DNA from: an uncultured Gammaproteobacteria bacterium
Lineage (GTDB): Bacteria; Patescibacteriota; Microgenomatia; CAZETR01; Amesbacteraceae
Direction: 5' to 3'
Assembly: GCA_964633995.1 (NCBI GenBank)
Contig: CAZWKN010000001.1
Coordinates: forward strand, 56,218-120,217
Length of the DNA stretch: 64,000 bases
Below the pieces are notes generated by a model that did not search any database, was not told the DNA's origin, and worked only from the letters and a program-made list of their open reading frames with translations. Position 1 is the stretch's first letter; each line of letters opens with the position of its first letter. Of this stretch, positions 22,637 through 52,140 are shown piece after piece. Both the position numbers and the translations under genes were made by a program.

Positions 22637-23323
22637 GTGAATCAAATACAAGCTGACATTCTTACGAGTTTGGCTAAGTGTGAACAAGGGCTGAGATATT
22701 CGCAAATCAAGCCGCGGGAACTTGAGAGCGATAAGTTTAATTACCATTTGCAGACACTGGTGGGAATGGCCTGGGTTGAAAAGAATGGAAATGTATACAC
22801 CCTGACGATTGAAGGAAAAAAGTTTGTTGCGAACATGGATTTGTTGGGCAACTTGAAACAGACGTTCAAAGTGTCGGTAGTGTTGTATGTCGTAAATGGC
22901 GCTAAAATTTTGGCACAAAAGAGACTGCGACATCCGTTTTTTGGAGATATTACTTCGGTGGCCGGCAAGGTATTGCCCGGAGAAAAAATAGAAGCTGCCG
23001 CAAGTAGGAAGTTGAAGGAGGAGACTGGTTTGGTGGGTAGTTTTAAACTGTTGGGTGTGCACAGAAAAATTAGAAAAACCAAACAAGGTGAGGTGATTGA
23101 AGATACTTTTTACAATGTGTGTGTATGTAGGCGTCCTGAAGGTGAATTGGAAGAAAAAAATATGTTTGGGGAAAATTTTTGGGTCGAGTTTGGACAGATG
23201 ATTGAATGGGAAAAGAAAAATGCGGACACGGGTAAAACCGATATAGAGATCATTGAAAGGATTAGAGATAACAATGATGAGTTGTTTTATTTTGAAGAAG
23301 AAACTGTGGTGGAGAGATATTAA
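22637..23323 (+). CDS. Winged-helix DNA-binding domain fused to a NUDIX hydrolase domain
   Basis: N-terminal wHTH-like 70 aa, then the Nudix box GEKIEAAASRKLKEETG; GTG start. Confidence 0.6.
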   Translation: MNQIQADILTSLAKCEQGLRYSQIKPRELESDKFNYHLQTLVGMAWVEKNGNVYTLTIEGKKFVANMDLLGNLKQTFKVSVVLYVVNGAKILAQKRLRHPFFGDITSVAGKVLPGEKIEAAASRKLKEETGLVGSFKLLGVHRKIRKTKQGEVIEDTFYNVCVCRRPEGELEEKNMFGENFWVEFGQMIEWEKKNADTGKTDIEIIERIRDNNDELFYFEEETVVERY

Positions 23324-24108
23324 GGTTTGATACGCTGTCCTTTTGGATCGATGCTCCAGATGCCAGGCCAACCTGAAAAGGCTCTAAGTTTTCTTTCAAT
23401 TTCTAAATTCGAAACTCTAAGCTCCAAATAATCCTTTAATTGTTTGTAGTCAATGAAACCGTCCTGGCGGGTGAGCTTGTGGGTGTAAGTCGCAAGACTG
23501 TCGTCTTGCTCTTTTAGTGCTAAGTGCGAAGTGCTAAGTGCTAAGGATAGAAATAGATCTGCTCCAAGTTCAAAGAGGCGATTACCCAACGTGATCCAGG
23601 TGTCGGTGGGCAAGATTGTATCTTTTTGGACGGCCACAATTGGGCCATGGTCCATTTTTTCGTCCATTTGGATAATGGTGACGCCGGTATCGGAAACGCC
23701 ATCTAATATCTGCTGTTGAAGAGGAGAAGCTCCTCTATATTTGGGTAGTAGCGAAGGGTGAATGTTGTAAATATGACCATTAAATTTATCCAAAATTTCT
23801 TTGGGGATTATCTTGCCGTAGGCGGCGACTAAGCCAACTATATCACCCTCTTCGGTTCCCCCTCTTAAATTCTCACTTTCGGCTCGTGCCTTCGTCGTAA
23901 GAGGGGGAAAGGGGGTGATATTTTCAATAACTGGAATGTCATTTTTTTGGGCAAATACTTTGACTGGGTTGGGGGTGAGCCTTAGATGTCTTCCGGCCGG
24001 TTTATCGGAGTTGGTAACAACACTTAGTACTTTGCACTTAGCACTTAGTACTTTCTCAAGGACTATGATGGAAAAGGGGGATGAGCCAAAAAAGACGATA
24101 TCTTGCAT
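23320..24108 (-). CDS. fmt: Methionyl-tRNA formyltransferase
   Basis: N-terminal formyltransferase fold, the HPSLLPKYRG motif, and a C-terminal domain; adjacent to def. Confidence 0.85.
   Translation of the reverse strand: MQDIVFFGSSPFSIIVLEKVLSAKCKVLSVVTNSDKPAGRHLRLTPNPVKVFAQKNDIPVIENITPFPPLTTKARAESENLRGGTEEGDIVGLVAAYGKIIPKEILDKFNGHIYNIHPSLLPKYRGASPLQQQILDGVSDTGVTIIQMDEKMDHGPIVAVQKDTILPTDTWITLGNRLFELGADLFLSLALSTSHLALKEQDDSLATYTHKLTRQDGFIDYKQLKDYLELRVSNLEIERKLRAFSGWPGIWSIDPKGQRIKP
23516..23550 (+). repeat. Heptamer array: AGTGCTA AGTGCGA AGTGCTA AGTGCTA AGGATAG (inside fmt)
   Basis: Read directly from the sequence. Confidence 0.75.
24021..24055 (-). repeat. Heptamer array in the opposite orientation: CACTTAG TACTTTG CACTTAG CACTTAG TACTTTC. 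It lies inside fmt and encodes EKVLSAKCKVLSV.
   Basis: Read directly from the sequence. Confidence 0.75.
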
Positions 24109-32575: not shown

Positions 32576-34546
32576 ATGGATTTGATAATTGTAGAGTCGC
32601 CAACCAAGGCCAAAACCCTGTCCAGGTTTTTGGGTAAGGGTTATGAAATTGAAGCTTCTTATGGTCATATAAGAGATCTGCCGCAAAAGAAATTAGGTAT
32701 AGATATGAAATCTAATTTCTTGCCAGAATATGTGCAAACGGATAAGCAGATTAAGAGGACTGAGGAGATTAAGAGATTAAGCAGCAAGGCTAAAACGATA
32801 TATCTGGCAACTGATCCTGACCGGGAGGGTGAGGCAATTGCTTGGCATGTGGGGGAAGTGCTAGGTACTAAGGGCAAAGTACTAAGACGGGTTACGTTTC
32901 ATGAAATTACCAAGAAGGCGATAGAAGAGGCGTTGAAACATCCCGGAGATGTAGACATGAAACTTGTGAATGCGCAGCAGGCAAGGAGAGTGTTGGACAG
33001 ATTGGTTGGATACAAATTGTCTCCATTACTGTGGAGAAAGATTAGAAAGGGATTATCTGCCGGTAGAGTGCAAAGTGTGGCGGTAAGGCTCATTGTAGAT
33101 AAGGAAAGAGAAATTGAAGCCTTTGTTCCCGAAGAGTATTGGGATATAAAAGTAGAGTTGCAAAAGTTGCACAGTTTACCAGTAGAACAGTTAACAGTTA
33201 AGTTGGTAAGTGAAGAAGTTAAGAACGGAGAAGATGCGAGTAGGGTCGAAAACGATCTTAGGGTGGCGGAGTTTGTGGTGGTGGGGGTGGATAAAAAGAA
33301 AGTAACTAGACTGCCGTTGCCGCCGTTTACAACTTCTACCTTGCAGCAGACTGCGGCCAATAAATTGGGTTGGAGTGCGAAAAAGACGATGCAAGTGGCG
33401 CAGAATTTATACGAAGAAGGATTAATAACCTATCACAGGACTGACTCAGTGAATATAGCATCTGAGGCAAGTGCTCAGTGCTCAGCCCTCATAGTTTCCC
33501 AATTTGGAAAAGAGTTTGCGTTGAATACGCCGAGACTATTTAAAACCAAATCTAAGTCGGCTCAGGAGGCGCACGAAGCAATAAGACCGACGGACGTCGG
33601 GCAAATTGCAGATCGCTTATCGCTAATTGCAAATAAGGACCAGGGGCGATTGTATGAACTGATTTGGAAAAGGTTTGTGGCTTGTCAGATGGCAGAGTCC
33701 ATAGGGGAGAGTGTAAAAGTAAAAATTCAAGCAGGAAGATATGGATTGGAGGCCAGAGGATTAACTATTAAGTTTGAAGGATGGCAAAAGGTGTACGGTG
33801 TCGATAAAGAAGAAGATGAGGGGGTGAAGTTGCCGGAGCTAGAATTGCAAGAGAAGTTGGATTGTGTGGATGTTTTGAAAACTCAGAAATTTACCCAACC
33901 GCCAAGTAGATATAATGACGCCAGTCTAATAAAAGCCTTGGAAGAGATGGGTATAGGTCGGCCTAGTACCTATGCGCCGACGTTGTCGACAATTGCTGAA
34001 CGTCAGTATGTAGAAAAAGTGGAGAAAAGGTTTAAACCAACGGCGTTAGGGATTGCGGTGAATGATTTTTTGGTAACTAATTTCGAGAAAATCGTGGATT
34101 ATCAGTTTACTGCCAAAATGGAAGAAGAGTTGGACGAGATAGCTGGTGGTGAAATGGAATGGCAGCCGGTTATCGCCCAGTTTTACGAACCGTTTGAAAA
34201 AGAATTAGACCGGGTACAGGAAGTTTCGGTGAGAGTGAAGGTGGAGGCCGAGTTGACTGGAGATAAGTGCCCTGATTGTACTTCGACGGGCTCAGTACAA
34301 GTTGGTGACGTGGTGGTCAGGATCGGAAAGTTTGGAAGATTTTTGGCATGTAGCCGGTATCCGGAGTGTAAATATAAAGCTAATTACCAACACAAGGTGG
34401 GTGTAAAGTGTCCGAAATGTGGGACAGGTGAAGTGATCATGAAAAAGACCCGTAATATGAAGACGTTTTTTGGTTGTAGCAATTATCCACAATGTGAATA
34501 CGCGAGTTGGAATAAGCCTGTTGTTTCAGCGACGGTAAGTGTGTGA
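32576..34546 (+). CDS. topA: DNA topoisomerase I with C-terminal zinc ribbons
   Basis: Toprim IVESPTKAKT, the active-site Tyr region GLITYHRTDS, and multiple C4 zinc ribbons. Confidence 0.9.
   Translation: MDLIIVESPTKAKTLSRFLGKGYEIEASYGHIRDLPQKKLGIDMKSNFLPEYVQTDKQIKRTEEIKRLSSKAKTIYLATDPDREGEAIAWHVGEVLGTKGKVLRRVTFHEITKKAIEEALKHPGDVDMKLVNAQQARRVLDRLVGYKLSPLLWRKIRKGLSAGRVQSVAVRLIVDKEREIEAFVPEEYWDIKVELQKLHSLPVEQLTVKLVSEEVKNGEDASRVENDLRVAEFVVVGVDKKKVTRLPLPPFTTSTLQQTAANKLGWSAKKTMQVAQNLYEEGLITYHRTDSVNIASEASAQCSALIVSQFGKEFALNTPRLFKTKSKSAQEAHEAIRPTDVGQIADRLSLIANKDQGRLYELIWKRFVACQMAESIGESVKVKIQAGRYGLEARGLTIKFEGWQKVYGVDKEEDEGVKLPELELQEKLDCVDVLKTQKFTQPPSRYNDASLIKALEEMGIGRPSTYAPTLSTIAERQYVEKVEKRFKPTALGIAVNDFLVTNFEKIVDYQFTAKMEEELDEIAGGEMEWQPVIAQFYEPFEKELDRVQEVSVRVKVEAELTGDKCPDCTSTGSVQVGDVVVRIGKFGRFLACSRYPECKYKANYQHKVGVKCPKCGTGEVIMKKTRNMKTFFGCSNYPQCEYASWNKPVVSATVSV
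32857..32891 (+). repeat. Heptamer array: AGTGCTA GGTACTA AGGGCAA AGTACTA AGACGGG. It lies inside topA and encodes EVLGTKGKVLRRV.
   Basis: Read directly from the sequence. Confidence 0.7.
33466..33491 (+). repeat. Heptamer array: AGGCAAG TGCTCAG TGCTCAG CCCTCAT (inside topA)
   Basis: Read directly from the sequence. Confidence 0.6.
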
Positions 34547-36590: not shown

Positions 36591-37778
36591 ATGGACGACG
36601 TGGTGTTTGGGTTGATTGAAAAAGAACAGCGAAGACAGGGGGAGACGCTGGCTATGATTCCTTCTGAAAATTATGTTAGCAAACAAGTGCTCAGGGCTCA
36701 GGGTTCAGGGCTTGGTAACAAATACTCTGAAGGGTATCCCGGAAGACGGTATTATCAGGGTAATAAAATAATTGATGAAATCGAGAATTTAGCCATAGAA
36801 CGAGCTAAAAAGTTGTTCAATGTGGATTATGTAAATGTCCAACCCTATTCGGGTAGTCCGGCGAATTCGGCAGTGCTGATGGCTCTTTTGGAACCCGGAG
36901 ACAAAATAATGGGTTTGAAATTGTCAGGCGGCGGACACCTGACACATGGGCACCCTAAAGTAACTTTTTCAGGAAAATTTTTTAATTCGGTGCAGTATGA
37001 TGTAAATTCTGATGGGTGGATTGACTATGATGAGGTAGAAAAATTGGCGAAAGCAGAAAAACCCAAATTAATGATAATTGGAACGACTGCGTATCCTAGA
37101 ATATTTGATTTTAAGAGATTTAAGGAAATCGCGGATGGGGTGGGTGCAAAGGTTTTGGCTGATATTTCTCATATTGCGGGACTTGTGGTGGGTGGAGTGC
37201 ACCCTAGCCCGGTAGGGTTTGCCGATGTAATTACCACCACAACCCATAAGACTTTACGGGGGCCGAGGGGGGCGATGATTATGACAAATGACGTTGAACT
37301 GGCGAAAAAAATTGACAAAGCAGTGTTTCCCGGACTGCAGGGTGGACCACACAATAATACGACGGCGGCGATTGCTGTTTGCTTGGGTGAAGCCGCAACG
37401 CCAGAATTTACATACTATGCAAAGCAGGTGGTAAATAATGCGAAGGCTTTGAGTGAAGAACTCGTGAAACTTGGGTTTAAATTGACTACGGGTGGGACGG
37501 ATAATCATTTGATGGTTATCAATTTGGGTGGTGGAGGTAAGGATGCGGCTGAGGATTTGGAAAGGTCGGGAATAATTGTAAATTATAATACCGTGCCGCA
37601 TGATCCCAACCCCCCCGCTAATCCATCGGGAATCCGACTAGGAACTCCGGCTTTGACTACCAGGGGGATGAAGGAAGGCGAGATGAGAGACATCGCCCAG
37701 ATGATATTTGAGGTGATTAAAAACAAGAAACAGGTTAGTGTGTTGGAGTTGTGCAGAAAATTTCCATATGATTTTTGA
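36591..37778 (+). CDS. glyA: Serine hydroxymethyltransferase
   Basis: The PLP-site TTTTHKTLRGPRG and the N-terminal SENYVS...AQGS...NKYSEGYPG region. The start was moved to the ATG at 36591 by homology with E. coli GlyA. Confidence 0.9.
   Translation: MDDVVFGLIEKEQRRQGETLAMIPSENYVSKQVLRAQGSGLGNKYSEGYPGRRYYQGNKIIDEIENLAIERAKKLFNVDYVNVQPYSGSPANSAVLMALLEPGDKIMGLKLSGGGHLTHGHPKVTFSGKFFNSVQYDVNSDGWIDYDEVEKLAKAEKPKLMIIGTTAYPRIFDFKRFKEIADGVGAKVLADISHIAGLVVGGVHPSPVGFADVITTTTHKTLRGPRGAMIMTNDVELAKKIDKAVFPGLQGGPHNNTTAAIAVCLGEAATPEFTYYAKQVVNNAKALSEELVKLGFKLTTGGTDNHLMVINLGGGGKDAAEDLERSGIIVNYNTVPHDPNPPANPSGIRLGTPALTTRGMKEGEMRDIAQMIFEVIKNKKQVSVLELCRKFPYDF
36686..36713 (+). repeat. Heptamer array: AGTGCTC AGGGCTC AGGGTTC AGGGCTT. 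It lies inside glyA and encodes the conserved VLRAQGSGL.
   Basis: Read directly from the sequence. Confidence 0.6.
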
Positions 37779-38526
37779 CGGAGTAAAGTTCGCCAGACAA
37801 ATTGAGGAGGAGTTGCCTAGAAAGAAGAAAAAATTGGTGGTATTTGTAGATCCTGAAAACATGGCCGGGATGAAATATGTGGAGATGAAATGGAAGATGG
37901 CGGAACGACTTGGGGTAGAATTTGAGATAAAAAATCTAAATTCTAAAGTCGAAACTTCAAATAATATTAAGATTCTAATTTCAAAATTAAACGCGGATCC
38001 GGTTGTGGATGGGATAATGGTACAGTTGCCGTTTCCGAATTCTGATGAGTTGATAATGTTGATTGATCCTAAAAAAGATGTGGATGGGTTGAGGGAAGAT
38101 TCACCATTTGTGCCAGCAACTGTGAGGGCTGTGGTCGAAATTTTGAATTACTCTTTTAGTACCTCACCCTTACATCCCTCTCCTGAATTCAGGAGAGGGA
38201 ATGAGGGAGAGATTGTAATTGTGGGCAATAAAGGCTCGGTTGGTAGCGGGCTAATGAAATGGATTCCTGGTGCAATTGGAATGGATAAGGAAGACTTTGA
38301 CCCTTCGGCATTGCTCAGGGCAAGTGTGATCATTTCGGCTACTGGACAGCCGGGGTTGATAACGAAAGAGATGGTTAAAGATGGTTTTGTGGCAATTGAT
38401 GTAGGGTACCCAAAACCTGAATTTACACAAGAAGCGTTGGCAAAGGCTAGTTTTTTTACTCCAGTGCCAGGTGGAGTAGGCCCGGTAACGGTGGCGATGT
38501 TATTTAAAAATTTGTTAGAGGTTTAG
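37768..38526 (+). CDS. folD: Bifunctional methylenetetrahydrofolate dehydrogenase/cyclohydrolase carrying an in-frame palindromic-element insertion
   Basis: GIMVQLPFP and the VIVGNKGSVGSG Rossmann motif. A ~16-aa insert STSPLHPSPEFRRGNEG lies between them. Confidence 0.85.
   Translation: MIFDGVKFARQIEEELPRKKKKLVVFVDPENMAGMKYVEMKWKMAERLGVEFEIKNLNSKVETSNNIKILISKLNADPVVDGIMVQLPFPNSDELIMLIDPKKDVDGLREDSPFVPATVRAVVEILNYSFSTSPLHPSPEFRRGNEGEIVIVGNKGSVGSGLMKWIPGAIGMDKEDFDPSALLRASVIISATGQPGLITKEMVKDGFVAIDVGYPKPEFTQEALAKASFFTPVPGGVGPVTVAMLFKNLLEV
38163..38211. repeat. 49-bp palindromic (REP/MITE-like) element, copy 1, inside folD
   Basis: CTCACCCTTACATCCCTCTCCTG-AATT-CAGGAGAGGGAATGAGGGAGAG, a near-perfect inverted repeat centred on GAATTC. 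A second copy is at 51993-52032. Confidence 0.7.
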
Positions 38527-38533
38527 AAATAAT

Positions 38534-39946
38534 ATGAGTGACGCGATGGAGACTGTGATGGAACAACGTTCGCAAGAACGAAGAGTGGATACCTTGAGGC
38601 CGGGGTCGTTGAATTTTTGGCGCGGAAAGGTGGGTGAAAAAACGCGGGGATTTATGGAGCGAATGGAAGTGGCAGGTGAGGTGTTTGATACCTGCGTGAA
38701 AGAGTTGGTGGATATGACCATGAATCTGGAGGAGAAGAGCCTGCGTGATTGGATGACAGGAAGTTTGCAGCGGGGGCCATTTTTAAAAGAAGTGGGGATA
38801 ATGGCCCAACTTTCAACTGGTCATCCTGAAGAAAAGGGGTGTTTGGCGGTGATGGACTTGGATAATTTTGGAAAATTGGTGGCCAAGAGAGCACCTGATG
38901 GTAAGTTGACAAAGACAGATATTGATAAGCAGGCTGATGACACATTAAGAGAATTAGTGAAACTAATTAATGGATTACAAAAAAGAAAATTGGAAGCACC
39001 GGGTGGAGAAGCGTGGAAGAACGTCAAATTGGGAAGATTGGGTGGCGAGGAGTTTGGAATACTTATTGGAAATGCCAGTAAGGCTCAAGTCGGTGAGATG
39101 TTGGAAGAGATTAGAAAAGAGATTGAGTCGGAATTGGCAAAAAAATCGAATGTCCCGGGCGTAGACAAGTTGACTGCTAGTTTTGGGGTGGTAATGCTAG
39201 ATGAAAATGTGGAGGTTTCTGATGCGATGAGACAAGCGGATACAGCCTTGTATTTGGCAAAAGAACAAGGAAAAAACAGAGTGGTTTTTGTTGGCGAAAT
39301 CGGGCAAGAAAAAGTTGTGTCGTCAAACCGGACGGTTGAAAGAAAACAAGTGGTTTTGGAAACGTCTAAGAGGCGAAAACAAATGTTGGCGGATGAGATT
39401 GAAAAAGGTTTGCGCAGTCGGCCATTTGAGTACGCGGAGACATTGGTGAATAGGTTGGCGCAATTGGAACAAAATTCATTTTTAGATAGTTTGACCGGAG
39501 TTTTGCATCGGGGGGCGGGTGACCAAGTGATTATGGACATGATCCGGCATGCGTCTACTATAAATGGGGATGAGGTGCGAGTGGTGGTGATGGATATCAA
39601 TAATTTTAAGGGAATTAATACGGAGAAGGGACATGATGGTGGGGATAAGGTGCTTAAGGAAACAGCAGATGTTTTGCGGGAAGTGGCGGTTTTGGTGGCT
39701 GGTGAGGGTGCGGTGGTTATCCGGTGGGCTCCTGGGGGGACATTTGTAATTGTGGGAGCTCATGGAAAAATGGCGGAAGCCGAGGTAGTTGACCGGATAA
39801 AATCGCTTGTAAAGCAAAAAGTGGGAGTAGGGTCTGATGTAGTGATGGCTAATGTGTCAGGTTTACTTACCTCATCTGATGTGGCTAACGCTGTTGGAAA
39901 TGCTTTGGGTGAAGAGAAGAGAAAAAGGAAGGCAAAAGTTGAGTAA
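38534..39946 (+). CDS. Tandem GGDEF-domain protein (the first domain has GGEEF; the second is degenerate)
   Basis: RLGGEEFGIL in domain 1. Domain 2 has DINNFKGIN...GHDGGDKVL but no intact GG(D/E)EF motif. Confidence 0.7.
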   Translation: MSDAMETVMEQRSQERRVDTLRPGSLNFWRGKVGEKTRGFMERMEVAGEVFDTCVKELVDMTMNLEEKSLRDWMTGSLQRGPFLKEVGIMAQLSTGHPEEKGCLAVMDLDNFGKLVAKRAPDGKLTKTDIDKQADDTLRELVKLINGLQKRKLEAPGGEAWKNVKLGRLGGEEFGILIGNASKAQVGEMLEEIRKEIESELAKKSNVPGVDKLTASFGVVMLDENVEVSDAMRQADTALYLAKEQGKNRVVFVGEIGQEKVVSSNRTVERKQVVLETSKRRKQMLADEIEKGLRSRPFEYAETLVNRLAQLEQNSFLDSLTGVLHRGAGDQVIMDMIRHASTINGDEVRVVVMDINNFKGINTEKGHDGGDKVLKETADVLREVAVLVAGEGAVVIRWAPGGTFVIVGAHGKMAEAEVVDRIKSLVKQKVGVGSDVVMANVSGLLTSSDVANAVGNALGEEKRKRKAKVE

Positions 39947-39957
39947 TGGTGTAAAAT

Positions 39958-41271
39958 TTGAACATGGATGTTGACGTTGAAGGAGCTGGCAAACTGGTAA
40001 AAGTTGACCCTAAGGTTGGGGGGCTGGAATTGGGCAAAAAATTGGATACGCTGCTAGGAGAAGGGTTTAATTTTGAAAGCCAGGCTTTGGAAGCTCAAAA
40101 AAAGCTTGATGGAACAGATATGGGTCAGACCGAAGCAGTTAAGTTTTTAAAAGATTCGGCGTTGTGGAGATGTAGGCAGGAGTTGATTGATTTTGATCCA
40201 GATGCGAATGAGGAGATTATCTTGAAGGTTGACAAAAAACTTAAGGAAGATAGAGATTTACAGAATGAAGTATTAGGGGTGTTGAGGAGTTTTAAAAAGA
40301 GAAGAATGAAGCACTTGGCAGTAAGTGATGTGACCATTGCTAAGGCTGTCGAAAGAAACGATCCCAAACAGCCCCGGGGACACATTGAAGCTGTGGTTGC
40401 TGAGCTTGATGGTATTCCTGAAGGAGCTGGTTTGTTGGGTTGGGCCGTAGAAACTCACGATGATGCAAAATATGCAGTGGCAGATGGGAAGGAAGTGTTT
40501 TTACTGGGTTTACATGAGACAGCAAGTGGGGTATTGGCTTATTCGGAGATCAAAGCAATATTGGAGGATTCTGAAGTCCGGCAGAGATTGGATATAAAAA
40601 ATGATCAGGAAGCTGATGCGGTGGCTAAGTTTATTGGCAGAGCAGTTTTGGGACATGGATATGAGGAGTTTCCAAAAAAAATGTCCAGACCGATAGCTGG
40701 AGAAGACGAGGTGAGGTTATTGTTTGGGCGAGAGTTGTACGTGGAGAATTATAAGCCACCCCAAAACGGAACATTGAGAGAAATATATGAGGGGGTGGGG
40801 GAGGCGGACATGATGGCAGGCGTAAGACTGGACTCTTTGGTTAAATATCATTACGAAGCCCTGATGACAGGTAATTATTTTGGGAATAATACGTCGGCCG
40901 ATTATTTACTTAGTTTTGCCCCGACGGTGGTCGATTATCAGATGGATATGCCGAAGAATTTAGGATTGCTTGAAAAAAATAAACCAGCAGTATGCAGGTC
41001 AGTTTTGATAATGATGTTGGCTGAAAAAATGAAGGGTTCAGATGAATGGGATGGAGTGGTATCCTCACTTTTGTCCAGCGGCGTGGATACGAATAGCATT
41101 TTGGGTAAATTTCAAGAAATGGGAGAGGTGTTTGGTGCGGACAAAAACAAGCATTTTGAATTGTTTGTAGGTGTGATAAGCGATCTAAATCAGGTCTCTG
41201 ATGAGGTTATTACACAATGTGTCGACCCAAACATTGTCAAGATGGCTCAAAAACGATTGGGTGTGGCGTAA
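39958..41271 (+). CDS. Hypothetical protein
   Basis: 437-aa ORF immediately downstream of the GGDEF gene. Confidence 0.45.
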   Translation: MNMDVDVEGAGKLVKVDPKVGGLELGKKLDTLLGEGFNFESQALEAQKKLDGTDMGQTEAVKFLKDSALWRCRQELIDFDPDANEEIILKVDKKLKEDRDLQNEVLGVLRSFKKRRMKHLAVSDVTIAKAVERNDPKQPRGHIEAVVAELDGIPEGAGLLGWAVETHDDAKYAVADGKEVFLLGLHETASGVLAYSEIKAILEDSEVRQRLDIKNDQEADAVAKFIGRAVLGHGYEEFPKKMSRPIAGEDEVRLLFGRELYVENYKPPQNGTLREIYEGVGEADMMAGVRLDSLVKYHYEALMTGNYFGNNTSADYLLSFAPTVVDYQMDMPKNLGLLEKNKPAVCRSVLIMMLAEKMKGSDEWDGVVSSLLSSGVDTNSILGKFQEMGEVFGADKNKHFELFVGVISDLNQVSDEVITQCVDPNIVKMAQKRLGVA

Positions 41272-41282
41272 AAAAAAATTTG

Positions 41283-41311
41283 TTGACAGAAAATGGGGTT
41301 ATATATATACT
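41283..41311 (+). promoter_or_regulatory. Candidate sigma70-like promoter (TTGACA-17-TATACT)
   Basis: Consensus -35 and a good -10 with a 17-nt spacer. It lies ahead of a 34-codon ORF (41318..41422) and of rpsB. Confidence 0.3.
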
Positions 41312-41432
41312 GCGACTATGTTTGATGGCGGGTTACCAGGTGAGTCTGATGCCGATTTCTCAAGCGGGTTGCGAAAAAAGAGGATTGAGAAGATAGTTGA
41401 GAAGAGGAAACCCCAGAAATAGAATTAAATTG

Positions 41433-41461
41433 TTGCAATAGAGCGGGAAGCGGGTTAGAAT
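41433..41461 (+). promoter_or_regulatory. Candidate sigma70-like promoter for the rpsB-tsf-frr operon (TTGCAA-17-TAGAAT)
   Basis: 17-nt spacer; ~78 nt upstream of the rpsB ATG, which has a GGAGGAGG Shine-Dalgarno sequence. Confidence 0.45.
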
Positions 41462-41539
41462 ACAGTCTGTTTAATTCACACTTCGCCGGGGGTTCTCCTG
41501 AATTTAATCTGGCGGAGGAGGTATAAGGAGAACAATCAA

Positions 41540-42244
41540 ATGCAAGAAATAACACTAAAAGATTTGTTGGAGGCCGGATGTCATTTTGGACATCAGTCGA
41601 GACGGTGGAATCCTAAAATGGCTCCGTATATCTACGGAGAGAAGGACAAGGTTCATATTTTTGATTTGGCGAAGACTAAGGCGGGCTTGGATGAGGCGTG
41701 CGAGGTTTTGAAAAAGATTGTGGCCGAGGGTGGGAAGGTATTGTTTGTAGGAACCAAGAGGCAGGCTGCGGACTTTGTAAAATCTGAGGCTATTAGAGCT
41801 GGTATGCCGTATGTTACTCAGACTTGGATGGGGGGCATGATGACAAATTTTGGCCAGTTGACCAAGAGTGTGAACAAAATGAAGGATTTGAAGGCAAAAC
41901 GCGCAGCCGGGGAGCTCAAGAAATATACCAAGCACGAGCAACTACTTATTGATCGAGAGATTGCAAAGCTCGAGAAATTTTTGGGGGGAGTCTCGGATAT
42001 GGACTCACTTCCCCAGGCAATGTTTGTAGTCGATACACATAAAGAAGATGTGGCCGTCAAAGAGGCTGTCAGAGCAGGCATTCCGGTTATAGGGATGGTG
42101 GATACAAATGGAGATCCCACGGTGGTGGATTACGTGATTCCTGTTAATGATGATGCGGTAAAGTCGATAGAGCTAATAGTAAAAGCGGTAGCAGACACTA
42201 TATTAAGTACTAAGGGGAGAAAGGCCAAAAAAGATGAAAGTTAA
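41540..42244 (+). CDS. rpsB: 30S ribosomal protein S2
   Basis: LLEAGCHFGHQSRRWNPKM N-terminus and S2 family motifs. Confidence 0.95.
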   Translation: MQEITLKDLLEAGCHFGHQSRRWNPKMAPYIYGEKDKVHIFDLAKTKAGLDEACEVLKKIVAEGGKVLFVGTKRQAADFVKSEAIRAGMPYVTQTWMGGMMTNFGQLTKSVNKMKDLKAKRAAGELKKYTKHEQLLIDREIAKLEKFLGGVSDMDSLPQAMFVVDTHKEDVAVKEAVRAGIPVIGMVDTNGDPTVVDYVIPVNDDAVKSIELIVKAVADTILSTKGRKAKKDES

Positions 42245-42686
42245 TATTGAGGATATCAAGAAACTGAGAGAGCAAACGGGGGCTGGTGTGTCAGATTGCA
42301 GAGCAGCTTTGGAGGAGGCAAAAGGGAAATTTGATGAGGCGATTGAGATAATTAAGAAATTAAGTCTTGACCGGGCAGCCAAAAAGACAGAGAGGGAAGT
42401 TAAGGCGGGATATGTCTTTTCGTATATTCATCACACTGGTCGGGTGGGGGCCGTTTTGGGACTGGCTTGTGAAACAGATTTTGTGGCTAAGACGGATGAT
42501 TTTATGCATTTGGGTAAGGAGTTGGTTATGCAAATTGCCGCTTCAAATCCAGCGAACGTAGAGGAATTTTTGGATAGTGAGTATATGCGGGATGGTTCCA
42601 AAAAAGTGTCAGAAGTAATTAAATCGGTCATTGGGAAGCTTGGGGAAAACATTCAGATATTGGACTACAAGGTTGTGGTAATATAA
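42234..42686 (+). CDS. tsf: Elongation factor Ts (short form)
   Basis: N-terminal UBA-like LREQTGAGVSDCRAAL; follows rpsB. Confidence 0.85.
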   Translation: MKVNIEDIKKLREQTGAGVSDCRAALEEAKGKFDEAIEIIKKLSLDRAAKKTEREVKAGYVFSYIHHTGRVGAVLGLACETDFVAKTDDFMHLGKELVMQIAASNPANVEEFLDSEYMRDGSKKVSEVIKSVIGKLGENIQILDYKVVVI

Positions 42687-42694
42687 TAAGTGAG

Positions 42695-43249
42695 ATGGAT
42701 TTGGCGGAAGTAAAATCGAAGATGCAGAGGGTGATTGAGTTTGTGAAGTCTGATGTGATGACGATTAGGACAGGGCGGGCAAACCCGGCTTTGGTGGAAA
42801 ATGTGGTAATAGGCGCATATGGCGGCACTGCAAAGATGAAGGTGTTGGAATTGGCCACGATTACTGTTCCTGAAGCGCAAACTTTGGTGATTACACCTTA
42901 TGACACCTCGATAATCGGAGATATTCGAAGGGATTTGGAAGCTGCGAATTTGGGTATACTGCCAGTGATAGACAATAGTGTAATCAGGATGACGTTTCCT
43001 CCGTTAACTACTGAGCGAAGACAGGAGTTTGTGAAGATGCTTCATGTCAAGCTTGAGGATGGTCGGGTGAAGGTGAGGCAAGTTAGGCATGAAATGATGG
43101 GGGAGTTAAAGCGGGATTTTGAGGCTAAATTGTTGATAGAGGACGAACGAAAAAGGGTCGAGGAAGAGCTGCAGAAATTGACGGATAAGATGATGGAAGA
43201 GATTGAGGTGATCGGTAAGGCCAAAGAGGCAGATTTGACCAAAATATAA
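42695..43249 (+). CDS. frr: Ribosome recycling factor
   Basis: 184 aa; RRF pattern (RTGRANP, LTTERR). Confidence 0.9.
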   Translation: MDLAEVKSKMQRVIEFVKSDVMTIRTGRANPALVENVVIGAYGGTAKMKVLELATITVPEAQTLVITPYDTSIIGDIRRDLEAANLGILPVIDNSVIRMTFPPLTTERRQEFVKMLHVKLEDGRVKVRQVRHEMMGELKRDFEAKLLIEDERKRVEEELQKLTDKMMEEIEVIGKAKEADLTKI

Positions 43250-43269
43250 GCCTGTAGTAAAATGGAGTT

Positions 43270-43494
43270 GTGAGCTCGATTGATTCACTACATCGCTTTG
43301 AAATGAAACGAAATTTTGGGCCTATGGTCGCTCTTGCCGTGCTATCTCTTCCTTTGGTCGCGCTACTGTGCAATTACACTACACAAATTATTGTTGCATC
43401 GAGCTTTTTTGATAAACAAACAAATTGTGAAGTTGCTGCACGGGCTGCAGGACTTGTGGTGAGTATGGTTTGTGGTGGTAGTGTTACGCCGTAA
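43270..43494 (+). CDS. Small hypothetical membrane/secreted protein
   Basis: 74-aa hydrophobic ORF. Confidence 0.3.
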   Translation: MSSIDSLHRFEMKRNFGPMVALAVLSLPLVALLCNYTTQIIVASSFFDKQTNCEVAARAAGLVVSMVCGGSVTP

Positions 43495-43514
43495 TTTTTG
43501 GTAGACTGGGGGAC

Positions 43515-44654
43515 ATGGCAACGTTTGTAATCTTTTTGGGACTTTTGTCTATTTTGGTTTTGATACATGAGTTGGGTCATTTTGTGGCGGCTAGGTTGTT
43601 TGGAGTGAAAGTGGAGGAGTTTGCTTTTGGATTACCGTTTACACCGCCGATTTTTAAGATAAAAAAGGGAGAGACCCAATATTCCATTTACCCTTTGGTG
43701 TTTGGTGGGTTTGTAAGGCTCCATGGAGAGGACCGTGAGGGGGACGATAAGAAACGATCATTTTGGAACAGGGGTAAAAAACAGAGATTGATGGTGATAC
43801 TTGCGGGAGTGATTATGAATGTAGTTTTGGGTTTTTCCGGCTTTATGATTTTGTATGGCATGGTTGGGGTTCCTGTGGCCAAAAAAGACAAAGTTACCAT
43901 TACTCAGGTCATTTTGGGGTCCCCGGCTGAAAAGGCGGGGGTAAGGGAAAATGACAGGATTTATTCAGTCGAAGGAAAAGAGATTGTGACCCTTGAGGAG
44001 TTTTCGAGACTAATGAAGTCGTGGGCCGGACTTACCGTCAATCTGGTGGTTGAACGAGGGACGACTACGCCTTTGTTTGAGGGTATTGCTGAAAAAAAAG
44101 TGGAAAGAAAGGCAATAGTGGTAACACCACGAGTCAATCCGCCTGCCGGTGAGGGAGCTTTGGGGGTGGGGATTGCCGCCTTCCCGTATTTGGAAACAAA
44201 AAAAGTCGGAGAGGTTTCCGGAGTTGAATTTGTAAAATTGGCGGTCGGGCAAAGTTTGGATAGCACTAAAATTTGGATGGGGAGAATCGTAGATGGACTT
44301 CGTAGTATTGGCCAGAGTTTGTCGAGAGGTAAAGCCCCGGAAGGGGTGTCCGGGCCGGTGGGAATTTATAAACTAACCGAGGTGGTTATCGCGGAAGGAT
44401 TGGCTCCGCTTCTGGAGCTTATGGCTATATTGTCGATTAATCTTGCGGTGTTTAATGTATTACCGATTCCAGCTTTGGATGGAGGTAGAGCACTGTTTAT
44501 AATTTTAGAGTGGGTAATGAAAAAACGAATTTCAGCTGCTACTGAACAAAAAGTTAATTCGTGGGGCATGGCGTTTTTGCTAGGACTTATGGTTTTGATA
44601 TCACTGCAGGATGTGGTGAGGTTGGGGTTTTTGGATAAACTAGTGGGGAAGTAG
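43515..44654 (+). CDS. rseP: RIP zinc metalloprotease RseP-like (site-2 protease with PDZ)
   Basis: HELGHFVAARLFGV in TM1, PDZ segment, C-terminal LDGG motif. Confidence 0.85.
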   Translation: MATFVIFLGLLSILVLIHELGHFVAARLFGVKVEEFAFGLPFTPPIFKIKKGETQYSIYPLVFGGFVRLHGEDREGDDKKRSFWNRGKKQRLMVILAGVIMNVVLGFSGFMILYGMVGVPVAKKDKVTITQVILGSPAEKAGVRENDRIYSVEGKEIVTLEEFSRLMKSWAGLTVNLVVERGTTTPLFEGIAEKKVERKAIVVTPRVNPPAGEGALGVGIAAFPYLETKKVGEVSGVEFVKLAVGQSLDSTKIWMGRIVDGLRSIGQSLSRGKAPEGVSGPVGIYKLTEVVIAEGLAPLLELMAILSINLAVFNVLPIPALDGGRALFIILEWVMKKRISAATEQKVNSWGMAFLLGLMVLISLQDVVRLGFLDKLVGK

Positions 44655-44678
44655 GTTTGGGTGTAAAATACGTATGGT

Positions 44679-44909
44679 ATGGGGAAAAGAAGAATCGCTG
44701 AAGGATATGCGAGGGACAAAGAGCGTCCATTGGTTGACTTTGTGACTCATTGCGGAAGAACGGACTGTTTTTTCGCCTGGATTTGTGTGCCGTTAAATTT
44801 GCTAAGGAGAATTGCCGCTATGGGTTGGTTTACTGACGAAGAGTTGCCTAGGTTGGAAGAACTTGCCGCGAAACAGTGTGGGGTGGCAAAGGATGATTTG
44901 AGATACTGA
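44679..44909 (+). CDS. Hypothetical small protein
   Basis: 76-aa ORF. Confidence 0.3.
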   Translation: MGKRRIAEGYARDKERPLVDFVTHCGRTDCFFAWICVPLNLLRRIAAMGWFTDEELPRLEELAAKQCGVAKDDLRY

Positions 44910-44910
44910 G

Positions 44911-45888
44911 ATGAGACTGGGTGAGTTTGATTACGAACTGCCGAAGGAGTTGATTGCTCAAGTGCCAGTGGAACCCCGGGATAGTAGTAGGTTGATGGTG
45001 GTAAGCCGAAACACGGGGAAAATCGAACATGATTATTTTTATAATTTGCCAAACTATTTAAATTCCTCTGACCTGATGGTTTTTAATGAAAGTAAAGTGT
45101 TTCCGGCAAGACTTTTTGGAAATAAAAAAACCGGAGGCAAGGTGGAAGTGCTACTACTTTCTAGGGTAGATAATACTAGTTGGAAATTTATTGGGAAAAA
45201 TCTACGAGGGGTTAGAGAGGTTGGGTTTGAAGGAAACTTGACTGCTAATATTGTTCGACCCGGGGTAATAAAATTTGATTGCGAAGATACCGAAATGATG
45301 CCTTTATTAAATCGGATTGGGTACACTCCGTTACCACCTTACATCATTACAAATCGCTTATCGCATAATGCGAATATAAGGCGAAGGTATCAGACGGTGT
45401 ATGCAAGGGATATGGGAAGTGCGGCGGCGCCGACGGCAGGACTGCATTTTACAAAGAAGTTAATTAAGAAATTAAGAGATTTAGAAATTCAGCAGGAGTT
45501 TGTAACTTTGCATGTGGGACTTGGAACCTTTTTACCCGTAAAAGCTGAAAATATTGAGGAACATAAAATGCACTCTGAATTTTTTAGAATAGACCAAGAA
45601 ACAAGAAACAAGATACAAACAGCAAAGAGGGTTGTAGCAGTTGGGACGACGAGTGTAAGGGTGCTGGAAAGTGATTGGTCGAAGAATGAAACTGATATTT
45701 TTATATATCCGGGTTATAAGTTTAAAAATGTTGGGGCAATGATAACTAATTTCCATTTGCCCAAGAGTTCGCTTTTGATGCTGGTGTCGGCATTTGCAGG
45801 GAAAGAATTGATTTTTGAGGCTTACCGTAAGGCCATAGAAGAAAAATATAGGTTTTTTAGTTTTGGGGATGCTATGATCATTTTATGA
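44911..45888 (+). CDS. queA: S-adenosylmethionine:tRNA ribosyltransferase-isomerase
   Basis: N-terminal MRLGEFDYELPKELIAQ and QueA family motifs. Confidence 0.9.
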   Translation: MRLGEFDYELPKELIAQVPVEPRDSSRLMVVSRNTGKIEHDYFYNLPNYLNSSDLMVFNESKVFPARLFGNKKTGGKVEVLLLSRVDNTSWKFIGKNLRGVREVGFEGNLTANIVRPGVIKFDCEDTEMMPLLNRIGYTPLPPYIITNRLSHNANIRRRYQTVYARDMGSAAAPTAGLHFTKKLIKKLRDLEIQQEFVTLHVGLGTFLPVKAENIEEHKMHSEFFRIDQETRNKIQTAKRVVAVGTTSVRVLESDWSKNETDIFIYPGYKFKNVGAMITNFHLPKSSLLMLVSAFAGKELIFEAYRKAIEEKYRFFSFGDAMIIL

Positions 45889-46067
45889 TCTCTGAAGACG
45901 AAACACGGAATGCATTTGTTGTTTTTTTCAGAAAATTATCAAGGGCGGGGCTGAATGGTGAAGCGGTGGGAGCAGCAATTGACGAACGGTCGGGAAGGTC
46001 GAATGGTATTGTAGCGACTGTTTTGACGTTGTTGGGGAAAGAAAGAAAAATGAGAGCAGCGAGGAGA

Positions 46068-47168
<1,101 letters not shown>

Positions 47169-47242
47169 TTAACTTGACAGAAACACGCAAAATATGGCAA
47201 TCTGGAGCTACTGAAAATTAGCTGTTAGTTGAATTGGACGCT

Positions 47243-47395
47243 ATGAAAAAAAGCAAAAACGACTTTTTTCTGATGGTGTTGCTGTCTTCCGCTGTTGTTC
47301 TGAGCGGGTTTGTGATATGGAGCAAGTTGGTGGGTTCAAAAAATGCTCCTGAGGTTGCTGGGGCGAAGACGGAACTAAGCACAAAAGGTCAATAA
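47243..47395 (+). CDS. Possible 50-aa single-TM small protein (below the track's length cutoff)
   Basis: ATG...TAA read manually: MKKSKNDFFLMVLLSSAVVLSGFVIWSKLVGSKNAPEVAGAKTELSTKGQ. Confidence 0.25.
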   Translation: MKKSKNDFFLMVLLSSAVVLSGFVIWSKLVGSKNAPEVAGAKTELSTKGQ

Positions 47396-47396
47396 T

Positions 47397-47405: not shown

Positions 47406-47434
47406 GGCAGTGTAAGGAAGGACGGTGATTTTTA

Positions 47435-48416: not shown

Positions 48417-48417
48417 G

Positions 48418-50053: not shown

Positions 50054-50062
50054 AATTGCGGT

Positions 50063-51940: not shown

Positions 51941-52140
51941 GAGATCGCCACGCCCGCCTGCGGTGAGGCTTTGCAATGACACGATTTTAAAACCTCACCC
52001 TCATTCCCTCTCCTGAATTCAGGAGAGGGAGGCCATTTGTTTTTTGTCATTGCGAATGTAATGAAGCAATCTAGTTTGAGATCGCCACGCTTTCGCCTGC
52101 CTGCCGGCAGGCAGGCGATGACAACGCAGAAACCCGTGAT
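51941..52140. repeat. Composite intergenic repeat region
   Basis: Visible in sequence: 13-bp direct repeats GAGATCGCCACGC at 51941 and 52078; an inverted pair GCAATGACA/TGTCATTGC; copy 2 of the folD palindromic element at 51993-52032; a perfect 24-bp palindrome CGCCTGCCTGCCGGCAGGCAGGCG at 52094-52117. Confidence 0.6.

What the first reader, a model, noticed from the sequence alone, without database searches (positions are those of the whole stretch)
38163..38211. In-frame insertion of a 49-bp perfect-palindrome element into folD
CTCACCCTTACATCCCTCTCCTG-AATT-CAGGAGAGGGAATGAGGGAGAG sits inside folD. It adds about 16 aa (STSPLHPSPEFRRGNEG) between the conserved ERYNI-like segment and the VIVGNKGSVG Rossmann motif. 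The E. coli FolD sequence I recall has no such segment. A second copy of the element lies in an intergenic region at 51993-52032. This mirrors Rickettsia palindromic elements that invade ORFs in frame, which is unusual outside that genus.
Basis: partly seen in the sequence, partly recalled or inferred. Interest (0 to 1): 0.7.

Follow-up and report, generated by a model that had tools for sequence, protein, structure and literature searches.

The report
Triplex-motif palindromic repeat translated inside folD
A 53-bp copy of a widespread bacterial hairpin repeat (the BoxC / "intrastrand triplex motif" type, reported as strictly intergenic in E. coli) sits in frame inside the folD gene of a tiny-genome groundwater bacterium, adds a floppy 16-residue surface loop, and proves to be one case of a common habit in this lineage of short repeats colonising and swapping in protein loops.

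Summary
Window 38161-38213 carries a palindromic element. Only its 26-bp core (38175-38200) is a perfect palindrome. The same 26-mer recurs in an intergenic region at 52005-52030. A third, divergent copy sits in frame inside fmt (about 23840-23921).

The folD copy adds 16 residues (SPLHPSPEFRRGNEGE) between the interdomain helix and the first Rossmann strand. AlphaFold2 models them as a low-confidence coil on an otherwise confident FolD fold.

The element is not related to Rickettsia RPEs by sequence class. It has the three-block architecture of the BoxC/PIT/TM "intrastrand triplex motif" repeats (Holder 2015). The hairpin with its third block occurs in many phyla.

What is new is the behaviour. 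In Microgenomates/Amesbacteria these elements lie in frame in many housekeeping genes: folD, fmt, def, tgt, recR, dnaX, uvrA. The folD loop is a hotspot: 120 orthologs carry at least six different repeat-derived inserts, interleaved on the tree. Alleles 97-98% identical elsewhere differ completely in a ~110-nt block around the loop.

How the element arrives, by transposition or by recombination, is unresolved. Verdict: a real, RPE-like phenomenon, and a new variant of a known repeat kind.

The parts
37768..38526 (+). folD (bifunctional methylene-THF dehydrogenase/cyclohydrolase), 252 aa plus stop. It is the host gene, and its start overlaps the glyA stop at 37778.
   Evidence: ORF listed. Pfam PF00763 and PF02882 match. 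PDB FolDs match at E = 4e-24. It is identical to P0001. The AF2 model has pLDDT 91.9 and matches FolD structures at TM about 0.8. Residues Y38, K42, Q87, D105 and D107 are invariant in alignment A1.
38161..38213 (+). TM-type palindromic element inside folD. Its parts are: outer arm ACCTCACCC (38161-38169), spacer TTACAT (38170-38175), inner arm CCCTCTCCTG (38176-38185), loop AATT (38186-38189), inner arm CAGGAGAGGG (38190-38199), spacer AATGA (38200-38204), and degenerate outer arm GGGAGAGAT (38205-38213). It is read in frame as T132-SPLHPSPEFRRGNEGE-I149.
   Evidence: Sequence and core match. The fold is -33.8 kcal/mol, z = -5.5. The relaxed three-block pattern matches on the minus strand at 38162-38198, with 0 expected by chance. 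The mirror/triad rule scores 8/8 on both sides. Orthologs P0012, P0016 and P0031 lack the segment.
38164..38211 (+). The 16 codons (SPLHPSPEFRRGNEGE) modelled as an unstructured loop between the interdomain helix and the first Rossmann beta-strand (IVIV, then GNKGSVG).
   Evidence: In the AF2 model, which carries one extra leading residue, residues 134-149 have no secondary structure and block pLDDT is 58-59, against above 90 elsewhere. They lie between H118-133 and E150-153.
51992..52030 (+). Intergenic copy of the same element. It is asymmetric: outer arm ACCTCACCC, spacer TCATT, inner hairpin with loop AATT, and no right outer arm. On the minus strand it reads hairpin - AATGA - GGGTGAGG.
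   Evidence: (repeat I1: 44 nt, 93% complementary to the folD copy). It lies between ORFs 50945-51940 and 52151-52582.
23840..23921 (-). Divergent family member in frame inside fmt. It has outer arms ATATCACCC / GGGTGATAT, an inner hairpin CCCCCTCTTA / TAAGAGGGGG, and a second small hairpin nested in the apical loop. It is translated as ITPFPPLTTKARAESENLRGGTEEGD.
   Evidence: The fold is -38.1 kcal/mol, z = -7.1. The host ORF matches Formyl_trans_N at E = 2e-37. Fmt orthologs on L129 and L130 carry the exact folD-type 26-mer at the same site.
23320..24108 (-). fmt (methionyl-tRNA formyltransferase), the second host gene in the window.

Best explanation
The 53-bp segment is a copy of a short, non-coding-type dispersed palindromic repeat of the BoxC / PIT / intrastrand-triplex-motif (TM) class. 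Its architecture is an outer arm ACCTCACCC, a G/C-rich 10-bp inner hairpin (CCCTCTCCTG / CAGGAGAGGG), and a mirrored outer arm GGGTGAGGT.

It now lies within folD at the codons joining the interdomain helix to the first strand of the NADP-binding Rossmann domain. In this frame the segment has no stop codon and keeps the downstream frame. I infer that it is transcribed and translated with the gene as a 16-residue Pro/Gly/Ser/Arg-rich, disordered surface loop that leaves the enzyme intact.

**Shown here**
- The family identity of the element.
- The in-frame position and the loop location.
- The same family sits in frame in many other housekeeping genes of related Microgenomates.
- This FolD loop is repeatedly occupied by different repeat families, with very recent turnover.

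**Inferred**
- Only copies that land in permissive loops, in an open frame, survive selection. The hotspot would therefore reflect structural tolerance plus local instability or recombination around the palindrome.
- The element has no benefit for FolD.

**Unknown**
- How a copy arrives. The candidates are transposition by an unidentified enzyme, or ectopic gene conversion and short-patch recombination from other copies or alleles.
For: **Family identity**
- The core 26-mer is identical in folD and in an intergenic site 13.8 kb away, with 0 expected by chance.
- The inner hairpin pattern occurs in more than 118 genome loci from many phyla. 74 of 122 hits carry CCTC[AT]CC or GG[AT]GAGG within 24 nt.
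- Holder et al. 2015 (PMC4666352) describe exactly this three-block motif: CCCTCNCCC-N3-6-GGGNGAGGG-N3-GGGNGAGGG. They report 3610 copies in 262 proteobacterial genomes.
- In 35 of 40 Microgenomates-type copies the third arm obeys the mirror/triad rule 8/8, against 5% with shuffled flanks. This includes variants with different inner arms.

**Insertion into folD**
- Orthologs with a minimal loop exist: P0012, P0016, P0031.
- AF2 places the 16 residues in a low-confidence coil on a confident FolD fold.
- Catalytic-site columns are invariant.

**Spread and turnover**
- Ortholog inserts are complete palindromic elements at the DNA level.
- They resemble other copies in their own genome. In L124 the folD copy and the copy at 17066 share TCCCCCTCTTAATTTAAGAGGGGGA. 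In L122 the folD copy and the copy at 5778 share the loop AAATTC.
- The folD copy of L119 and the intergenic copy of L125 share a 36-nt stretch.
- Presence/absence polymorphisms occur in RecR, in TGT (two sites) and in the DnaX linker.
- The exact 26-mer lies in frame in Fmt and in a nucleotidyltransferase-like protein in metagenome contigs.
- L130 carries five copies, all in frame, in Fmt (two), Def and a Wzy_C protein (two). UvrA on L062 carries two.
- The insert classes among 120 FolDs are interleaved on the NJ tree.
- Three folD alleles are 97-98% identical outside a ~110-nt block but only 65% identical inside it, with three different loop states.
Against: - No transposase, target-site duplication or other mobility signature was found. 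The flanks are always A|CCTC...GAGG|T and often ATA...TAT, which may simply extend the palindrome.
- The near-isogenic alleles differ over about 110 nt, including flanking codons. That looks more like cassette recombination or local hypermutation than clean insertion and excision.
- Translation of the insert and activity of the enzyme are inferred, not observed.
- No close relative (above 63% identity) of this particular folD is available to show its own empty site.
- The strict TMECO pattern is not matched.
- Triplex formation was not tested. Even for E. coli it was not supported in vivo.
Confidence: 0.8

Rival explanations
1. No transposition occurs. The palindromes are recombinogenic or unstable DNA, not mobile elements. 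The folD loop is a hypervariable cassette. Its content is exchanged between alleles and other genomic copies by short-patch homologous recombination or gene conversion, or is generated by error-prone repair at a non-B DNA structure.
For: Alleles 97-98% identical differ over a ~110-nt block that includes flanking codons, not only the element. No target-site duplication is seen. Holder 2015 links TM motifs to elevated local sequence variability and found no association with transposons, phages or plasmids. The hairpin pattern gave 0 hits in 2.9 million viral contigs.
Against: Elements appear as complete units, with both outer arms, at sites whose empty orthologs show no homology to the arms. Examples are RecR and TGT site 1. 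Identical subfamily sequences occur at non-homologous loci in different genomes. This rival concerns how the element arrives and is compatible with the main explanation of what it is.
Confidence: 0.3
2. The hairpin is there for a function at the nucleic-acid level. One possibility is a stable mRNA structure at the domain boundary that pauses ribosomes or tunes folD expression. Another is a DNA structure that promotes adaptive variation. On this view its position is selected rather than merely tolerated.
For: The structure is very stable (-33.8 kcal/mol). It sits exactly at a domain junction. Palindromy is retained across diverged ortholog inserts.
Against: Many orthologs, including near-identical alleles, lack any hairpin or carry unrelated repeats at the site. 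The same elements sit in unrelated proteins and in intergenic DNA. No terminator-like T tract is present and no Rfam family matches. Holder 2015 reports that an earlier investigation found no promoter or terminator activity for the E. coli motif.
Confidence: 0.1
3. The segment is an old, vertically inherited, lineage-specific FolD loop maintained for a protein function. Its resemblance to the intergenic repeat is secondary.
For: Many related FolDs share TSP...GEG...GEV-like peptides at the same site.
Against: The 26-nt identity to an intergenic copy cannot be explained by protein-level selection. The DNA palindromy is not needed for a peptide. Insert classes are interleaved on the tree. AF2 sees no structure in the segment. 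The same DNA is read in two different frames in different hosts: PSPEFRRG and PLLNSGEG.
Confidence: 0.05
4. Assembly artefact or pseudogene. Either a repeat-induced misjoin in a metagenome-assembled genome, or a folD inactivated by insertion.
For: The genome is evidently a metagenome assembly. Repeats can cause chimeric joins.
Against: The frame is intact and both flanks are folD. The identical protein is on record (P0001). The same kind of insert appears in contigs from independent projects and different assemblies (ENA, JGI, Logan, NCBI). Catalytic columns are conserved.
Confidence: 0.02

Closest known systems
BoxC / PIT (potential intrastrand triplex) / TM-ECO G/C-rich intrastrand triplex motif repeats (Holder et al., NAR 2015, PMC4666352; the same E. 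coli motif is treated as a G-quadruplex-hairpin switch in bioRxiv 10.1101/032615)
   Same: The three-block architecture is the same: a C-rich arm, its G-rich complement forming a hairpin, then a second G-rich arm that mirrors the first with A-to-T changes (GGAGAGGG / GGGTGAGG here, GGGAGAGGG / GGGTGAGGG in E. coli). It is dispersed in multiple copies, has no associated transposase, occurs sometimes in palindromic form, and is associated with local sequence variability.
   Different: The blocks are 8 nt rather than 9 nt. The inner stem is extended to 10 bp by TG/CA. The second loop is 5-6 nt rather than 3 nt, so the strict TMECO pattern does not match. In Microgenomates both outer arms are usually present, giving a fully palindromic element of about 52 nt. 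The E. coli copies are always intergenic, whereas here 2 of 3 window copies and most related copies are in frame inside genes.
Rickettsia palindromic elements (RPEs; summarised in review PMC10969869)
   Same: These are palindromic repeats inserted in frame into unrelated housekeeping genes and translated as extra peptide segments judged compatible with the protein fold. Intergenic copies exist as well.
   Different: RPEs are about 150 bp according to that review and, from my own knowledge, are known only from Rickettsia. They each encode a conserved peptide and have no triplex-type block structure. The present element is about 50 bp, belongs to a pan-bacterial motif class, is read in two frames, and shows rapid replacement by other repeat families at the same loop. 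Sequence similarity to RPEs was not tested.
Cyanobacterial small dispersed repeats (SDR; Elhai et al., Genome Res 2008; cited in PMC3116915; details from my own knowledge because the paper is not held)
   Same: These are very small (tens of nt) repeats that appear mobile by filled/empty comparison. They are found nested in other repeats and sometimes inside genes, with no known transposase.
   Different: Different sequences and phylum. The FolD-type hotspot and triplex-type architecture are not, to my knowledge, part of the SDR description. Not compared here.
REP / REPIN elements mobilised by RAYT transposases (PMC3116915)
   Same: Short G/C-rich palindromes that are dispersed, form mosaics with other repeats, and evolve within the genome.
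   Different: REPs are extragenic and are linked to a RAYT gene. From my own knowledge, E. coli REPs carry a conserved 5' GTAG tetranucleotide next to the hairpin. No RAYT was looked for or seen here, and the elements here are frequently intragenic.
Intragenic ERIC and other MITEs giving in-frame fusions (review PMC10969869)
   Same: Non-autonomous repeats that occasionally lie in frame within ORFs.
   Different: From my own knowledge, MITEs are typically 100-400 bp with terminal inverted repeats and target-site duplications derived from an IS. No target-site duplication or parent IS is evident here.

Membership tests
BoxC/PIT/TM intrastrand triplex motif repeats | Three consecutive blocks on one strand: a C-rich arm, a complementary G-rich arm forming a hairpin, and a second G-rich arm. 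| tested here: met
   The relaxed pattern CCTCNCC-N2-12-GGNGAGG-N2-12-GGNGAGG matches both window copies on the minus strand, with 0 expected by chance. 74 of 122 cross-phylum hairpin hits carry the third block.
BoxC/PIT/TM intrastrand triplex motif repeats | The third arm is compatible with purine-motif triads: it mirrors the purine arm, with G*G, A*A or T*A. | tested here: met
   The rule scores 8/8 for the folD copy on both sides and for 35 of 40 related elements, against 5% with shuffled flanks. It also holds for variants with different inner arms. The arms are nearly mirror-symmetric, so discrimination from a direct repeat is modest (8 versus 7).
BoxC/PIT/TM intrastrand triplex motif repeats | The strict TMECO consensus CCCTCNCCC-N3-6-GGGNGAGGG-N3-GGGNGAGGG. 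| tested here: not met
   0 matches in the window. The blocks are 8 nt and the second loop is 5-6 nt. This is therefore a relative of the class, not a TMECO copy.
BoxC/PIT/TM intrastrand triplex motif repeats | Intergenic location (always intergenic in E. coli K-12). | tested here: not met
   2 of 3 window copies are inside folD and fmt. Related copies lie in Def, TGT, RecR, DnaX, UvrA and Wzy_C proteins.
BoxC/PIT/TM intrastrand triplex motif repeats | Forms an intrastrand triplex in vitro (CD/NMR). | not testable with these tools
   Only hairpin energetics could be computed.
Rickettsia palindromic elements | Palindromic repeat inserted in frame in ORFs, with the peptide placed at the protein surface. 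| tested here: met
   This is the functional resemblance.
Rickettsia palindromic elements | Sequence membership in one of the RPE families (about 150 bp; known only from Rickettsia, from my own knowledge). | tested here: not met
   The element is 53 bp and the host is a CPR/Microgenomates bacterium. Direct sequence comparison with RPE consensus sequences was not run.
MITE | Terminal inverted repeats plus a target-site duplication, derived from an IS. | tested here: inconclusive
   The outer arms could serve as terminal inverted repeats. The flanks A|...|T, and ATA...TAT in about half of 13 elements, are as consistent with palindrome extension as with a TA duplication. No parent IS was seen.
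REP/REPIN-RAYT | Association with a RAYT (Y1 transposase) gene. | not tested
   The proteins of the window were not systematically scanned for transposases.
Intrinsic terminator | A G/C-rich hairpin followed by a T tract. | tested here: not met
   No terminator-like site is called at 38161-38213. The hairpin is followed by ATTGTAATTGTGGGC.
Described structured RNA family (Rfam 15) | A match to a curated covariance model. | tested here: not met
   Only chance-level hits were found (E = 1.7-10, far below gathering scores).

The most novel reading that the evidence does not exclude
BoxC/TM-type triplex-motif palindromes, whose origin and mobility have remained unexplained since their description in E. 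coli, may be actively turning-over elements. In CPR/Microgenomates bacteria they, and at least five other short repeat families, colonise permissive loops of housekeeping proteins in frame on a genome-wide scale. That would be a second, independent RPE-like system. It would drive rapid, cassette-like diversification of protein surface loops between near-identical strains, and it would provide filled/empty sites from which the mobility mechanism can be worked out.
Probability: 0.5. Interest if true: 0.8.

Novelty: new variant of a known kind. Interest (0 to 1): 0.66.

Why it matters
**For the TM/BoxC repeat class.** Both E. coli studies read here found the motif only between genes. Its function and mode of spread are unknown. 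Finding the same architecture in frame inside essential genes of a streamlined genome gives natural filled/empty and allele-replacement comparisons. Here it is polymorphic between lineages, and at one loop between alleles that are 97-98% identical elsewhere. Such comparisons can test whether the elements move, recombine or destabilise DNA.

**For protein evolution.** Short repeats may routinely seed new surface-loop sequence in Candidate Phyla Radiation proteomes, as proposed for Rickettsia RPEs.

**For annotation.** Such inserts inflate apparent divergence, create lineage-specific "low-complexity" segments, and can mislead homology-based annotation and structure prediction in CPR genomes.

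Tried and rejected
- **Rfam.** An E-value-mode scan of 37000-53500 gave only chance hits (mir-320, SNORD100 and similar), so this is not a described RNA family.
- **Terminator.** The scan found none at the element.
- **Strict TMECO pattern.** It gave no match in the window, so I do not call this a TMECO copy.
- **Phage vector.** The hairpin pattern gave 0 hits in viral contigs.
- **Source contig of P0001.** It is not on record. The organism is therefore inferred only from homolog names: the closest named relatives are Candidatus Amesbacteria at 58-59% identity.
- **Native GGTGAGGT as a target site.** I considered this because insert-free L125 folD has ACG GGT GAG GTT. I dropped it as a general rule because the empty sites in RecR and TGT show no such sequence. 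The short TSP(R)GEV / NSPGEV loops more likely contain outer arms only, as remnants.
- **Target-site duplication.** Inspection of 13 symmetric elements was inconclusive.
- **Literature.** Searches for CPR/Patescibacteria together with palindromic, MITE or in-frame terms found nothing relevant in the held library. Elhai 2008 could not be read.
- **High-GC loci from the genome scan.** Long spanning ORFs there (Streptomyces and others) were not counted as coding insertions. Such ORFs are unreliable at 65-70% GC, and the Streptomyces hits lack the third block.
Full report
**1. What is in the sequence**

Window 38161-38213 reads ACCTCACCC-TTACAT-CCCTCTCCTG-AATT-CAGGAGAGGG-AATGA-GGGAGAGAT. Only the central 26 bp (38175-38200) form a perfect palindrome. 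The outer arms pair imperfectly and the spacers differ by one base, so "perfect 49-bp palindrome" overstates it.

The 26-mer occurs exactly twice in the window, at 38175 and 52005, against 0 expected in 100 dinucleotide shuffles. The intergenic copy (51992-52030) has the left outer arm ACCTCACCC and spacer TCATT. TCATT is the reverse complement of the folD copy's right spacer. The two copies therefore derive from a roughly 52-nt palindromic master (repeat I1: 44 nt, 93% complementary).

A scan for pyrimidine-armed hairpins finds just three such elements in 64 kb. Shuffled sequence gives 0-1, and one unrelated hairpin lies at 9103. The third element lies in fmt at about 23840-23921. The folD element folds at -33.8 kcal/mol as RNA (z = -5.5). 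The fmt element folds at -38.1 kcal/mol (z = -7.1).

**2. The host gene and the insertion**

- The ORF is folD: Pfam PF00763 and PF02882 match, and PDB FolDs match at E = 4e-24.
- Its true start is the ATG at 37768. The product is 252 aa and identical to database protein P0001.
- The closest other homologs are 61-63% identical. The closest named ones, at 58-59%, are Candidatus Amesbacteria, so the organism is a CPR/Microgenomates bacterium.
- Against 36 orthologs, the window protein has NYSFSTSPLHPSPEFRRGNEGE between the EIL helix end and the IVIVG strand. Several orthologs have only 5-8 residues there, for example KPYTGE, TQTGN and KNSPGE.
- An AlphaFold2 model built on that alignment is confident (pLDDT 91.9, pTM 0.88) and matches FolD crystal structures at TM about 0.8.
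- In the model, which carries one extra leading residue, residues 134-149 (SPLHPSPEFRRGNEGE) are coil with pLDDT of about 58. They lie between helix 118-133 and strand 150-153.
- The catalytic-site columns Y38, K42, Q87, D105 and D107 are invariant. Their catalytic role is assigned from my own knowledge of FolD/MTHFD1.
- The insertion is therefore real, in frame, and in a loop at the junction of the two domains.

**3. What the element is**

These include Chloroflexota, Bacteroidota (Spirosoma), cyanobacteria, Gammaproteobacteria (Berkiella), Peribacteria, Saccharibacteria, Amesbacteria and Microgenomates.

In 74 of 122 hits the hairpin is accompanied within 24 nt by CCTC[AT]CC upstream or GG[AT]GAGG downstream. 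Usually this block is on one side only.

A full-text search for these blocks led to Holder et al. 2015 (PMC4666352). That paper describes the E. coli "TMECO" motif CCCTCNCCC-N3-6-GGGNGAGGG-N3-GGGNGAGGG, earlier called BoxC or PIT.
- It reports 3610 copies in 262 proteobacterial genomes, and G/C-rich relatives that are abundant in cyanobacteria.
[quoted passage not shown] Triplex formation was not supported in vivo.
- The E. coli copies are always intergenic and are not linked to transposons, phages or plasmids.
- The motif is associated with elevated local sequence variability.
- An independent preprint also finds the E. coli copies only in intergenic DNA.

The window copies satisfy a relaxed three-block pattern on the minus strand, with 0 expected by chance. 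They also satisfy the purine-motif mirror rule: GGAGAGGG is mirrored by GGGTGAGG, with A*A or T*A triads. That rule holds 8/8 in 35 of 40 related elements, against 5% with shuffled flanks. It co-varies in variants whose inner arm differs, such as AAGAGGGGG with GGGGGTGA and TAGGGGGAGA with AGTGGGGG.

The strict TMECO pattern is not met. I therefore file the element as a relative of the TM/BoxC class, not as a TMECO copy. No Rfam family, terminator signature or viral-contig match exists.

**4. It is not a one-off: in-frame copies in many genes**

The window's fmt carries a variant element in frame, translated as ITPFPPLTTKARAESENLRGGTEEGD, with a second small hairpin nested in its apical loop.

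The exact 26-mer was found on 11 metagenome contigs:
- inside Fmt at the same site as in the window (L129, L130);
- inside a nucleotidyltransferase-like protein (L131-133, L136);
- otherwise upstream of tsaD or ybeY, or intergenic.

Other related contigs show the same habit:
- L130 is syntenic with window 23.3-28 kb. It has five elements, all in frame, in Fmt (two), Def and a Wzy_C protein (two).
- UvrA on L062 has two.
- A Spirosoma ABC exporter has one in its ATPase domain.
- In syntenic Amesbacteria loci, RecR, TGT (two sites) and the DnaX linker carry elements that the window's orthologs lack.

Two reading frames are used, giving ...PSPEFRRG... and ...PLLNSGEG.... By my own reading of the reconstructed ~52-nt palindromic master (no tool call), the third frame of that master contains a TGA.

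**5. The folD loop is a hotspot with fast turnover**

DNA of eight ortholog loci shows that their inserts are complete palindromic elements of the same class. They include a CCCCCTCTTAA/TTAAGAGGGGG variant. One (L123) has a nested hairpin, and one (L126) carries a different hairpin family.

Each resembles other copies in its own genome. The L124 folD copy matches the L124 copy at 17066, and the L122 folD copy matches the L122 copy at 5778. The L119 folD copy shares 36 nt with an intergenic copy in L125.

Among 120 FolD homologs the loop falls into at least six repeat-derived classes plus a short state. By a rough pattern-based count they are:

| Loop class | Approximate count |
|---|---|
| TM1 (TSPL..LLN.GEG..GEV type) | 17 |
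| TM2 (PP.LNLRGG type) | 17 |
| LQEDLL | 11 |
| QCSVL | 13 |
| NKFK | 11 |
| SLKExPF | 6 |
| short | 25 |

These classes are interleaved on a neighbour-joining tree built without the loop.

Three alleles give the sharpest evidence. Two come from the same Hainich aquifer well. They are 97-98% identical in nucleotides outside a ~110-nt block and only 65% identical inside it. One has a full TM2 element. One has only the outer arms (TCACCC|GGTGAGG, giving KNSPGE). One has a different hairpin family.

This shows recent replacement. Because flanking codons change too, it looks more like cassette recombination or local hypervariability than clean cut-and-paste. That echoes the local instability Holder et al. 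report around TM motifs.

**6. Most likely mechanism**

Shown:
- A dispersed TM-class palindrome lies in frame in a surface loop.
- The same family and other repeat families occupy permissive loops of many housekeeping proteins.
- Occupancy turns over quickly.

Inferred:
- The segment is translated as a disordered loop and is tolerated.
- Selection removes copies that break frames or land in structured regions, which creates apparent hotspots.

Unknown:
- How copies arrive. No target-site duplication or transposase was found.

The rivals are functional mRNA or DNA structure, an ancient protein loop, and artefact. Polymorphism between near-identical alleles, the 26-nt identity to an intergenic copy, use of two frames, and recurrence across independent assemblies make each of them unlikely.

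**7. Comparison and novelty**

Functionally this is RPE-like. By sequence architecture it belongs with BoxC/PIT/TM repeats. It also recalls cyanobacterial small dispersed repeats.

The held literature contains nothing that links CPR/Patescibacteria with intragenic palindromic repeats. In E. coli the TM class is reported as strictly intergenic.

I rate it a new variant of a known kind. It is of real interest to people who work on bacterial repeats, CPR genome biology and protein-loop evolution.

Noticed in passing
window 16206-16236, 16457-16487, 23516-23546, 24022-24059, 25612-25642, 27566-27596, 32857-32887: A second repeat family (AGTGCTAAGTGCAAAGTACTAAG-like) has 7 copies. Six of them lie in frame inside ORFs: fmt (two), def, a Wzy_C protein, topA, and ORF 16238-16825. 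The window's Def carries this repeat (TLSTSPLTLSP) at the same site where the L130 Def carries a TM element.
   Followed up: partly
window 51941-52150: The intergenic region holding the second TM copy is a mosaic of other palindromes. GAGATCGCCACGC...GCAATGACA-type hairpins lie at about 51941-51981, 52047-52075 and 52081-52127. The arrangement is reminiscent of E. coli BIME mosaics.
   Followed up: no
window 23868-23897 (inside the fmt element); L123 1636-1662: A small hairpin of the CGAAGC/GCTTCG type is nested in the apical loop of a TM element in two unrelated loci. A related hairpin replaces the TM element in L126 folD. Apical loops may be preferred entry points for other repeats.
   Followed up: partly
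window about 37927-37965 (FolD residues about 54-66): FolD has a second hypervariable site between strand 52-57 and helix 65-77. Orthologs carry repeat-like peptides there (NFQFTN, SNDK, and the TM-like SPQPSPKLGEGD in P0028).
   Followed up: no
whole window: GC skew is extreme and uniformly positive (0.17-0.43 per 2 kb), and most genes are on the + strand.
   Followed up: no
L028 4206-4229 (Spirosoma panaciterrae): A TM hairpin with its third block lies in frame (SPLLNSGEGAGVR) within the ABC_tran domain of a C39-peptidase ABC exporter. In-frame TM insertions therefore also occur outside the CPR.
   Followed up: partly
L138, L139, L126 (folD alleles): Alleles that are 97-98% identical elsewhere show a ~110-nt hypervariable block centred on the loop. 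Two of them are from the same Hainich well (H52).
   Followed up: yes
window 38534-39946; L139 840-1592: A GGDEF-type gene follows folD in L139 (Pfam GGDEF). The 470-aa ORF following folD in the window was not checked against Pfam. Other syntenic Amesbacteria loci have rpsB directly after folD.
   Followed up: no
window 37768-37778: The glyA stop overlaps the folD start by 11 nt, an arrangement that suggests translational coupling. An in-frame GTG at 37738 would give a longer ORF that is probably not used.
   Followed up: no
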